A stretch of 63,450 bases of DNA, filler included, from Bipalium vagum (lineage: Eukaryota), in assembly GCA_037834085.1 (NCBI GenBank). It is 3 parts of 3 records of this genome, joined end to end, with 100 filler letters (N's around TTAATTAATTAA, not from the genome) between each part and the next. Parts side by side here need not be neighbours in the genome. Positions count along the whole stretch, not along the records: positions 27,874 to 47,761 come from JBBMKC010265234.1; 2 more parts are not named here. One strand, written 5' to 3'. A program made the translations under genes and the position numbers. This document shows, in pieces, positions 38,913 through 41,596 of this stretch. Below the pieces are notes generated by a model, which searched no databases, was not told the DNA's origin, and saw nothing but the letters and a program-made list of their open reading frames with translations. Each line of letters begins with the position of its first letter. The first letter of the stretch is position 1.

Positions 38913-40722
38913 TTAAAAAACTCTCTCGCTCTTAGTCTCAGAGGTCCTCGAATAATAAGAAAAATAATTTAGCTGGTAGATCAAATTGCTCATTTTCGCA
39001 TCATCAATTGTTAGTATACAATCTTCGTATTCTGATGTGTCAATGGATATATTGGACGTTAGCGAGACTAATTCTGGATTTGTACTTGAAATTAGGATGT
39101 TGGCAATATCTTGACTTTTTAATTTATGATCTTTGATTATTCTGTATTATTTAATGGACTATCGGAATTTACAATGTCATTAAATATCTTTTTTCCTCTT
39201 CCGCCCCTAAATGGAACATATGGTGGGGGTGGCGGATTCTCATTTTTTTCATTTATGTATTGTCTTCTATAAATCCCTTGTTTGTCTGTAATTCTCGCAG
39301 GGCACAACCAGATTTCTCTGATGTCATGCGTGCTTTTTATGCATTGTACGTCTCCCCAGCTGAGACCTCTCTTGGTGGTAGAAGCTAATTCTGGTATCTT
39401 TAATTTGTTTGCGGTATTTTGGAGCTTCAGGGTGCTCTGTTGGGGTATTTTCATCAGATTACGAAGATAGGTCAACAATTGTATGTCAATATATCCGGTC
39501 AAGGATTGGGGTTGGATTTGACCAAGGGTCAGAATGTATTCTTCTTGATTGGCAATTAAGACTTTATTGATGAGAGCCTCCTGAAAATATTCGTAAGTGA
39601 GGGATTCATCTAGACCACCAATAAATTCTTTATTCGCAATGCCTGTTTGCTGCTGGTTCATTTTAAAATAGGCTCGGTGCGCTATAATGTTCCTTAAATG
39701 TCTTGGCTCTTGTAATCCATAACATATATTACTAATAGGATATGTTTGGACTGATCAGTACCAGGTTTGTAGGTATTAATGTTGGCATCACTGCATTGAA
39801 TTGGATGTATGCTAAATTCATTTGTTTAAGGTGATAGGGATCCCGTGCTCTAAGGGCTTTGTAAATCTGATCATTATCATGCTGTAGTTTCATGTAGGAT
39901 ATATAATCTGCTCCTTGTATATATTCTATTACCAGGACGGTAATCTGTCTCAGTGTTTCGAACCACAGGGACCGTGCTCGGCTAACTAAATTATCACACT
40001 TAATGGTGTAATATTTATATACCGTTACTGGAGCACCAATACCTCCGATACGTAGAATAGTTGGGTTGTTACACACATGTATGTGTGCTGTTTCCCTTGG
40101 ATACAATTGTTTGAAATGAGGGATAACATCTGCTCTGTAAAAATATCTGGGATTTTTCACTGTGCATGTAGATGGCTCTACACGCGGTTAGGAAGAAGAA
40201 TTTGCATGAATTAGGAATGTATGTTTGCTCCAAACTGACGTTATGCACCTCAATAAGGCCGGTCTGATGATCTAGATATGCTACGCACTCCTGATATGGG
40301 GTTTGGTTGAATTCCTGCATTTGAATTGTTGCGTCTGATTTTGCCTCTGGAAAGTATTGACTCAGTTGGGTGGTTAAAGTCTTTTTGGCTGAAGAATTCG
40401 CACTTGGTTGTGATTTGGACGTACAGGGGTAAAAATTTGATTGTCGGGAGACTGTGAATCCTATTTGCGTTGACTGAGGCTTTTTGGATTATTTTGTATT
40501 AGAATTATTTATTGTTAATGGTAGGAAATACGTGTCTAATAACCACCAATGTAATCGATAATATATGTATTGTTCGAACTCTATCATGTGTTTACCAGCT
40601 GCGAAATTATTCAAAACTATACTTTTATTGTTCTTATATAATACTCTGCACAATTTGTTGTGGGTATAGGATGAAATATGGTGCAGATTATTTTCTCCAG
40701 AGGATGTACTAGATATCTCCAT
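38913..40722 (-). pseudogene. Disrupted ~600-codon ORF of unknown family, adjacent and antisense to the LTR
   Basis: Track ORFs 40489-40722 and 40069-40320 are in the same frame, separated by one TAA and an open linker (SKKPQSTQIGF...DATIQ). Frameshifts near 40160, 39750 and 39145 link to 39732-40160, then QTYPISNIC...YFK plus 39137-39661, then RIIKDHKLKSQDIANIL...KSERVF*. Intronless and higher in GC than the flanks. Confidence 0.65.
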
Positions 40723-40924
40723 ATTCTGTTATTCATAGAAGTTAAAAGAGGTATCTCTAAATTATGAAATTTGACTTGATGACTGATGAAACAGTGTTTT
40801 TGGGTGGAAAAATCATGTATTGTAATATTAATATGGTATTGCTGAGTTTTGTCAAGATAACGAAACAGAATAGTTTGTGAGCCTGGGTGTAAGTGTATAA
40901 AGGATATCTGTGCATCTTTTTTCC

Positions 40925-41596
40925 TGACAGAAATCCATTAGCCTCGACGGAAGGAAGACTATCTCGGCGTGGAGATACTGAAGGGCTATTGTGAAAAATA
41001 GCGGTCTCTGAGCGTAGGGATTGGTGACCGTAGATCAATCCCTACGCCTATAAAAGGAGACGGCTATTCCCGTTGATTGCCAGACAGCATCCAGAAACTA
41101 TCGACAGCATCCAGGAATTATCGACAGTGTCCAGAAACTATCGACATCATCCAGATTCAGTACGTCAATAATCAGTGATTATGCAGCCGGATTTATTCGC
41201 AGTTATGCCGTCGGATTTTTGCAAGGGGACCCAGCGAGCTCGGGAACCCCTTGGCGCTCTTGGTGAGGCTGATTTTGTTCATTTATGTGTTTTCATTGTT
41301 TTAATTTTATTATTAAATTATTATCATTACTATTGTTTTCGCTTTCAGCGGTAGCGAGAATTCAGTTTTATTCAATATAACATTATTTGTTTTTAGTGAT
41401 CGATTTAATATTTGTAATACAAATAAAGTTTTATTTTAAATATCTTGATTTGATTATCGAGGGAGCGGATATTGTATAGTGGAGGGTGTTTTTCATTCAA
41501 AGGAGTTGAGAAGGGTTTCGAACACAACGAATAACACAACGTGAGGAGTCACGAACCGACGAGCACACGTTGCTACATTTCCGTATATTAGTAACA
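40925..41596 (+). mobile_element. Second copy of the same LTR family (5' boundary uncertain)
   Basis: Shares gaaatccattagcctcg, gtagggattggt...caatccctacgcc, gcaaggggacccagcgagct and the terminal gggagcggata...gtgaggagtcacga...gacgagcacacgttgctacattt...gtaaca with 18169-19126. TATAAAA at 41049-41055 and AATAAA at 41422. Confidence 0.75.
41083..41154 (+). repeat. 20-bp tandem repeat (~3.6 copies) inside the LTR
   Basis: Unit gacagcatccagaaactatc with variants gacagcatccaggaattatc, gacagtgtccagaaactatc and partial gacatcatccag. Confidence 0.9.

What the first reader, a model, noticed from the sequence alone, without database searches (positions are those of the whole stretch)
38913..41596. LTR-linked antisense ~600-codon orphan ORF with a PPxY motif: candidate novel retroelement accessory gene or captured viral gene
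Seen: four track ORFs plus open linkers join into one intronless minus-strand reading frame (40722 to ~38913), broken by only one stop and about three frameshifts. It starts ~200 nt from a TATA- and AATAAA-bearing LTR copy that points the other way. I find no RT (YxDD), protease (DxG), integrase (HHCC/DDE), CCHC knuckle or obvious env signal/TM anchor. It does contain NPPPPPYVPFRGGRGKK. Known: PPxY is the NEDD4/ESCRT-recruiting late domain of retroviral Gag and rhabdo/filovirus matrix proteins; some Ty3/gypsy elements carry extra antisense ORFs between pol and the 3' LTR; non-retroviral viral genes are often captured beside LTR elements. Inference: this is the decayed 3' end of an LTR element carrying an unclassified antisense gene, possibly driven by bidirectional LTR promoter activity, or an endogenised viral structural gene.
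Basis: partly seen in the sequence, partly recalled or inferred. Interest (0 to 1): 0.8.

Follow-up and report, generated by a model that had tools for sequence, protein, structure and literature searches.

The report
Decayed orphan gene beside hairpin repeat
A real but broken gene of about 600 codons, with no relative found and several decayed copies in this probably flatworm genome, is likely a relic of an unclassified mobile element or virus, and the abundant hairpin-rich repeat beside it likely landed there separately.

Summary
The reading frame is real. 40722-38913 (minus strand, 603 codons) needs 4 breaks, against at least 9 in 500 of 500 simulations. Contigs of one run show diverged, internally deleted copies. 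No relative was found in any protein, family, structure or contig search. A small Gag profile that recovers 5 of 5 true Gags does not score it. The neighbour (40925-41596) is a far more abundant repeat with a sharp end at 41596, a second copy at 18338-19126 and a strong hairpin array. A related contig follows the gene to 40920 and shows no joint into the repeat. PPPY is present but sits in a five-proline run (0.11 expected by chance). Best reading (0.4): a dead gene of an unclassified element or endogenous virus, hit by an independent solo-LTR-like insertion. A native link in sense (0.2) or antisense (0.15) geometry is not excluded. No host assembly could be examined.

The parts
38913..40722 (-). 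Decayed intronless orphan reading frame, 603 codons, one internal stop and three frameshifts (near 40075-40100, 39735-39754 and 39140-39146)
40072..40722 (-). Piece 1 (217 codons, internal TAA at 40489-40491)
39735..40187 (-). Piece 2 (stop-to-stop 151 codons; about 39745-40080 belongs to the chain)
39140..39754 (-). Piece 3 (205 codons) with the proline run and basic patch
39188..39238 (-). P5-Y motif (PPPY at 39229-39218) followed by an RGGRGKK basic patch
38913..39146 (-). Piece 4 (77 codons) and final stop; the break before it is not shared by two other contigs
40723..40924 (-). Possible 5' extension: one frame open 40937-40620 with gene-like codon use (log-odds +4.0 against -4.6 and -14.0); another frame with ATG 40915 and a hydrophobic 52-codon peptide
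   Evidence: covered by a related contig up to 40920
40925..41596 (.). High-copy repeat, copy A (TG...CA), sharp end at 41596, orientation undetermined; TTTTC lies at 40919 and at 41597
   Evidence: (35 contigs leave at 41596)
40930..41075 (.). Hairpin block, 118/131 identical to copy B; RNA fold z -4.6 (plus), -4.2 (minus); includes the non-conserved TATAAAAGG at 41049
41083..41155 (.). About four 20-nt tandem units, poorly kept in copy B
41252..41268 (+). PBS-like stretch starting TGG (TGT in copy B), internal to the repeat; tRNA match not tested
   Evidence: resemblance recalled
41457..41596 (.). Terminal block, 124/141 identical to copy B. Plus strand: purine run (11/15) then TGT at 41473. 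Minus strand: Pol III A-box-like (41575) and B-box-like (41523) motifs, 52 nt apart in both copies
18338..19126 (.). Repeat copy B, with extra hairpins at its left end, no ORF beside it, no target-site duplication found

Best explanation
The frame is a broken copy of a multi-copy orphan gene that likely belonged to an unclassified mobile element or endogenous virus, and the abundant repeat at 40925-41596 likely inserted separately at the gene's 5' end as a solo-LTR-like unit. Shown: coding origin, decay by a stop, frameshifts and (in other copies) deletions, several copies, no detectable family, a repeat with one sharp end and far higher summed depth. Inferred: the gene spread with its own element to a handful to a few tens of sites and then died. 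Its product was most likely a non-enzymatic particle or nucleic-acid-binding protein, since no catalytic motif was found and a proline-rich stretch plus RGG/basic patch lies near the C-terminus. PPPY could have bound WW-domain (NEDD4-type) ligases (established for retroviral and rhabdoviral late domains, recalled), but nothing here shows that it did.
For: Coding origin: 4 breaks against at least 9 in 500/500 simulations. Several copies: up to 10 contigs share a variant position (39963), and joints skip 39141-39802, 39890-40105, 40133-40501 and others. Coding strand is A-rich and G-poor (A 0.37, G 0.16) against G 0.20-0.25 in four exon sets of three host genes in the window. Separate origin: summed contig depth is 27-1382 per bin over the gene and 2268-34917 over the repeat, with unique contigs at 15-28 (not a copy number). 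A 1047-nt contig matches 40497-40920, has 283 further letters, and no joint from it into the repeat is among the 11 joints. A 4780-nt contig holds listed pieces only at 40105-40304 and 40382-40488 and has about 4150 letters on the upstream side with no listed match. The junction has 3/15 purines on plus and no TGG on minus. TTTTC flanks copy A on both sides, one base off the TG. Copy B has no ORF.
Against: No contig bridging an empty site (about 40924 to 41597) is listed. The 5-nt direct repeat is one base off register, in T-rich DNA, and copy B has none. An insertion within 10 nt of a plausible start codon is a coincidence under this model. Both copies have an ATG 8-9 nt beyond the left end on the minus strand, inside a similar weak hairpin, which hints at a native leader-to-gene junction. 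Only 8 of about 1800 contig pieces and none of their sequences were shown, so linkage in other copies is barely sampled. The origin of the gene (element, virus or host family) is not established by any homology.
Confidence: 0.4

Rival explanations
1. Native link in sense geometry: the repeat is the 5' end of the element (terminus at 41596, Pol III-like boxes, hairpin leader) and the orphan is its first gene. The abundant copies would be non-autonomous derivatives that kept the terminus and a packaging-like leader.
For: A- and B-box-like motifs lie on the minus strand 21 and 73 nt inside the sharp end in both copies. The hairpin array (z -6.9 to -8.0 in copy B) lies directly before an ATG in both copies. 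One frame is open to the repeat's edge. DNA beyond 41596 is host-like (27% GC, many breaks).
Against: Not a Gag by Pfam, hhalign (probability 0.1) or profile score (-1.3 bits, 234/300 shuffles as good; 5 of 5 true Gags beat all shuffles). No PBS at the junction. The 1047-nt contig shows no joint into the repeat. No tRNA by ARAGORN or Rfam.
Confidence: 0.2
2. One reading: an antisense accessory ORF in the 3' internal region of an LTR retrotransposon. It fits only if the true 3' LTR is the 124-nt block 41473-41596 and the hairpin block is 3' internal sequence.
For: Purine run (11/15) directly before TGT...ACA on plus in both copies. Tandem repeats in the 3' region. Precedent: Grande, RIRE2, Retand, PvRetro13, Boty (PMC7264820, passages).
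Against: No pol or second LTR in the window. The hairpin block is at least as deep as the terminal block (46849 at 41028, 33063 at 41555), whereas solo LTRs would be expected to exceed internal sequence. TATA not conserved. No purine tract at 40925.
Confidence: 0.15
3. A structural gene of an unknown flatworm virus was reverse-transcribed and joined to this repeat by template switching, then duplicated.
For: Intronless, composition unlike the host exons, PPPY, no TE motif. Endogenous densovirus-like and PEVE/PIVE elements are reported in flatworms (PMC13055364, PMC3198968; passages).
Against: No viral match in three IMG/VR pattern scans, among 1.84 billion representatives (piece 1) or in BFVD (low-confidence models). 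No helicase motif. Copies appear without the repeat.
Confidence: 0.15
4. Pseudogene of a lineage-specific, intronless host gene family.
For: Overall GC (37%) is within the range of host exons in the window; lineage-specific families often lack database relatives (own knowledge).
Against: Every related contig shown is diverged, gapped or deleted; G-poor, A-rich coding strand unlike three host genes.
Confidence: 0.1

Closest known systems
Ty3/gypsy elements with antisense extra ORFs between pol and the 3' LTR (Grande, RIRE2, Retand, PvRetro13, Boty; PMC7264820, passages read)
   Same: Orphan ORF without database similarity near an LTR-like end, with tandem repeats nearby
   Different: No pol, no purine tract at the junction, ORF far rarer than the repeat, orientation not established; the cited examples are plants and fungi
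Burro giant gypsy elements of planarians (PMC6431247, section 7 read)
   Same: Probable host group; decayed fragments with stops and frameshifts; accessory ORFs
Helenus / TRIMp3, for the repeat (PMC10886601, abstract, first part of Results and Discussion read)
   Same: Non-coding unit of 670-790 nt with TG...CA ends, Pol III box-like motifs, PBS-like and PPT-like stretches
   Different: No second LTR inside the unit, no tRNA match, an added hairpin array
PEVE/PIVE and endogenous flatworm densoviruses (PMC3198968, PMC13055364, passages read; original PEVE paper not seen)
   Same: Multi-copy virus-like elements in flatworm genomes, hairpin-bearing ends
   Different: No Rep or SF3 helicase motif, no capsid family hit, hairpins short and separate rather than one terminal palindrome
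Bdelloid LTR elements with captured ORF3s (PMC5408684, passages read)
   Same: Extra ORFs of mixed origin in an invertebrate's retroelements
   Different: Those are env, GDSL or DEDDy ORFs downstream of pol; none matched here

Membership tests
Ty3/gypsy element with antisense extra ORF | gag-pol in the same element | tested here: not met
   No RT, RNase H or integrase family among 71 ORFs scanned, 64 from 28-50 kb; holds for this copy only
Ty3/gypsy element with antisense extra ORF | Polypurine tract directly before the 3' LTR | tested here: inconclusive
   3/15 purines before 40925; 11/15 before the internal TGT at 41473
Ty3/gypsy element with antisense extra ORF | Two LTRs bracketing the ORF | tested here: not met
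   Only other copy is 22 kb away, with host genes between
Ty3/gypsy element with antisense extra ORF | ORF present in most copies of the family | tested here: inconclusive
   Summed depth about 100-fold lower over the ORF; two related contigs without a listed joint into the repeat; solo units could explain part of this
Ty3/gypsy element with antisense extra ORF | Antisense transcript | not testable with these tools
   No stranded RNA data could be laid
Ty3/gypsy Gag | Capsid domain with major homology region | tested here: not met
   Pfam 0 hits on whole pieces and fragments; 4-sequence profile finds PNMA2 capsid (E 0.016) and 5 of 5 control Gags but not pieces 1-3; small profile, so very distant Gags are not excluded
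Ty3/gypsy Gag | CCHC knuckle | tested here: not met
   (some Gags lack it; recalled)
Retroelement env (baculovirus F or chuvirus-type glycoprotein) | Family homology, furin site, C-terminal membrane anchor | tested here: not met
   No Pfam hit; blastp against three env proteins best E 1.0; no furin motif, highest hydropathy 1.26
Retroelement env (baculovirus F or chuvirus-type glycoprotein) | Signal peptide | tested here: inconclusive
   Hydrophobic 52-codon frame from ATG 40915, in a different frame and scoring below a rival frame
Helenus / TRIMp3 (repeat) | tRNA-derived sequence in the LTR | tested here: inconclusive
   A/B-box-like motifs in both copies; no tRNA by ARAGORN or Rfam
Helenus / TRIMp3 (repeat) | Two LTRs with PBS and PPT between | tested here: not met
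   Terminal block has no match upstream of the PBS-like site on either strand (best score 16-17)
Parvovirus-like / PEVE endogenous element | SF3 helicase or capsid homology | tested here: not met
   No Walker A, no Pfam or PDB hit; PEVE sequences not compared directly
PPxY late domain | Motif present | tested here: met
   PPPY at 39229-39218
PPxY late domain | Conserved among copies | tested here: inconclusive
   One contig aligns over 39097-39232, ending just past the motif (20 differences, places not shown)
PPxY late domain | Binds a WW-domain ligase and promotes budding | not testable with these tools
   bench test needed

The most novel reading that the evidence does not exclude
The orphan is the particle gene of an undescribed class of flatworm element whose terminus carries a Pol III-type promoter and a hairpin (kissing-loop) packaging leader. 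The protein would be a non-Gag capsid or matrix that buds through its PPPY motif without an envelope gene, and the abundant 670-790-nt repeats would be its non-autonomous passengers.
Probability: 0.08. Interest if true: 0.8.

Novelty: new variant of a known kind. Interest (0 to 1): 0.35.

Why it matters
A 600-codon protein without any detected relative, in a multi-copy family, marks an unclassified element or virus of a poorly sampled animal group; one intact copy could name a new capsid or accessory fold. If natively tied to the hairpin repeat, it would identify the helper of an abundant repeat family and a new element layout. On present evidence it is a dead copy with an unproven link, so it is a lead for a genome-wide follow-up and not yet a mechanism.

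Tried and rejected
Homology, all blank. Pfam E<=1 on four pieces and E<=10 on eight fragments: best E 0.027, none near cut-off. PHROGs best E 0.047. Word search: piece 3 longer (326 candidates) and near (54), piece 1 longer (196): none scored. phmmer of piece 1 on 1.84 billion representatives: 0. PDB sequences best E 0.11. IMG/VR pattern scans: 19, 8 and 29 candidates, none confirmed; GTDB 108, none. Pieces 2 and 4 were never run against the two large protein collections, and nothing was tested against the ESM Atlas. Single-sequence folds had mean pLDDT 32.9 and 30.4, so the Foldseek runs (0 hits at E<=0.001) carry no weight. A Gag-like pattern that I saw by eye in piece 3 failed the profile test. 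Repeat motifs: two metagenome hits were 19-20-nt chance matches in 68% GC bacterial contigs; none in IMG/VR or GTDB. No Rfam family at gathering score in either copy. Selection: of 16 displayed variant positions, 14 were classifiable, 5 synonymous and 9 not, 7 at third positions; too few and mostly private to this copy. The depth spike at 38882-38982 (43902) was rejected as a conserved element end because that stretch cross-matches AT-rich sites. No RNA holder listed. Literature searches listed no paper describing such an element in flatworms; Repbase, the original PEVE paper and the S. mediterranea genome paper were not seen, and no supplements were read.

Full report
Observation. From M40722 to the stop at 38913-38915 (603 codons) the chain needs one stop and three frameshifts. 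The minimum number of breaks is 4; 500 first-order Markov simulations of the same stretch, scored on their best strand, needed at least 9 (mean 18), and no other of 166 sliding windows did as well. PPPY lies at 39229-39218 inside a five-proline run followed by RGGRGKK; composition alone predicts 0.11 PPxY in this much sequence. No RT, protease, integrase, knuckle, Walker A, furin or membrane-anchor motif was found.

The start is uncertain. One frame is open from 40937 to 40620 and scores as gene-like (+4.0 against -4.6 and -14.0); extending the chain to 40924 costs one more break, while beyond 41041 breaks rise quickly. An ATG at 40915 opens a 52-codon hydrophobic frame. So the gene may reach the repeat's edge, and the '200-nt gap' need not be a promoter region.

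Copies. No host assembly is held, so I laid the contigs of the one run that holds the stretch, X1; it may be the window's source and is not independent. Contigs identical to the window have depth 15-28. Summed depth is 27-1382 per 100-nt bin over the gene and 2268-34917 over the repeat; the tool warns this is no copy number, so I use it only as an order of magnitude. Up to 10 contigs share a variant position in the gene. Joints show internally deleted copies (39141-39802, 39890-40105, 40133-40501, 40304-40382 and others), and the break near 39142 is not shared by two other contigs. The gene is therefore a member of a small decayed family. Of 16 displayed variant positions, 14 could be classed: 5 synonymous, 9 not; this says nothing reliable about selection.

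Identity of the protein. Every search was blank: Pfam, PHROGs, word searches, phmmer of piece 1 on 1.84 billion representatives, PDB sequences, IMG/VR and GTDB pattern scans. Pieces 2 and 4 had the weakest coverage. Folds without an alignment were unusable (pLDDT 30-33). By eye, piece 3 recalled a Ty3/gypsy capsid pattern. I tested this with a profile of four natural Gag regions. The profile finds PNMA2, all four left-out Gags and a fifth independent one above every shuffle, but gives piece 3 -1.3 bits with 234 of 300 shuffles as good (hhalign probability 0.1). Three env proteins gave best E 1.0. The coding strand is A-rich and G-poor compared with three host genes in the window, which fits a retroelement or virus (own knowledge) but does not prove it.

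The repeat. Copy A (40925-41596) and copy B (18338-19126) share three blocks at 88-90% identity separated by variable linkers. The right end is sharp: 35 contigs leave at 41596 with unlike flanks. The left block is an array of hairpins (RNA fold z -4.2 to -8.0); copy A lacks part of it. Orientation cannot be fixed. For plus: a purine run before TGT at 41473, a PBS-like TGG stretch at 41252 (TGT in copy B) and AATAAA at 41422. For minus: A- and B-box-like motifs 52 nt apart in both copies and several AATAAA. It behaves like a solo LTR or other non-autonomous terminal unit; membership of Helenus is not met.

Link between gene and repeat. Against a native link: 3/15 purines before the junction on plus and no PBS on minus; no pol family among 71 ORFs scanned; a 1047-nt contig follows the gene to 40920 and shows no joint into the repeat; a 4780-nt contig carries an inner part of the gene with about 4150 unmatched letters upstream; TTTTC flanks copy A on both sides. 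For a native link: no empty-site contig is listed; the direct repeat is one base off and absent in copy B; DNA beyond 41596 is host-like; both copies have an ATG 8-9 nt beyond the left end on minus. Only 8 of about 1800 pieces were displayed and none as sequence, so the test is thin. I put independent insertion at 0.4, native sense link 0.2, native antisense link 0.15, viral gene captured by this repeat 0.15, host pseudogene family 0.1.

Likely mechanism. The gene likely spread with its own, unidentified element, then decayed. Its product was likely a non-enzymatic particle or nucleic-acid-binding protein; PPPY could bind WW-domain ligases as viral late domains do (recalled), but conservation is only hinted at by one contig whose alignment ends just past the motif.

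Comparison with what is known. Antisense extra ORFs are described in plant and fungal gypsy elements (PMC7264820, passages). Planarian Burro elements carry accessory ORFs and decayed fragments (PMC6431247, passages and section 7). Bdelloid elements capture varied ORF3s (PMC5408684, passages). Flatworms hold PEVE/PIVE and densovirus-like insertions (PMC3198968, PMC13055364, PMC9241645; passages). Helenus TRIMs carry Pol III boxes (PMC10886601, abstract, part of Results, Discussion). The locus meets the defining features of none. The host is taken as a planarian-like flatworm from unchecked earlier notes, not from a test here. Seven literature searches listed no matching description; Repbase and supplements were not seen.

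Verdict. A real, unexplained orphan gene family and an unusual structured repeat, with the proposed antisense-LTR mechanism unsupported. Interest 0.35.

Noticed in passing
window 18325-18545: Copy B holds five or six short perfect hairpins in a row (z -8.0); two neighbouring loops (CTCGCC and GGCGGG) are complementary with one G-U pair, as in kissing loops. No Rfam match.
   Followed up: partly
window 18200-18320: A 97% AT, AAT-rich patch abuts the left end of copy B; 20 of 613 100-nt bins in the window reach 90% AT. It could be a SINE-like tail or an ordinary low-complexity patch.
   Followed up: partly
window 36585-37404 (+): Stomatin-like (Band_7, Band_7_C) gene with short introns, convergent with the orphan about 1.5 kb away.
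   Followed up: no
window 23093-25127 (-): La-domain gene in long exons.
   Followed up: no
window 7906-8781 (-): 292-codon exon ending in a stretch that resembles the start of a voltage-gated calcium channel alpha subunit (recalled; no Pfam hit).
   Followed up: no
window 21104-21376, 29024-29185, 30659-30814, 44576-44785: Decayed DNA-transposon fragments: DDE_1, IS1595-like and two mariner-type Pfam hits.
   Followed up: no
window 38882-38982: Summed depth spike of 43902, probably cross-matching low-complexity contigs; not resolved.
   Followed up: partly
L021:2-5681: IMG/VR contig with a gypsy-type pol followed by a Monjiviricetes (chuvirus-type) fusion glycoprotein (E 8.7e-260); such captures are recalled mainly from BEL/Pao elements.
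   Followed up: no
L037:871-4867: IMG/VR contig with a Gag bearing an N-terminal SAP domain, and an integrase ORF upstream of it on the same strand.
   Followed up: no
window 10877-11128 and 58049-58300: The longest inverted repeat reported lies mostly in N runs and is an artefact of gaps.
   Followed up: yes
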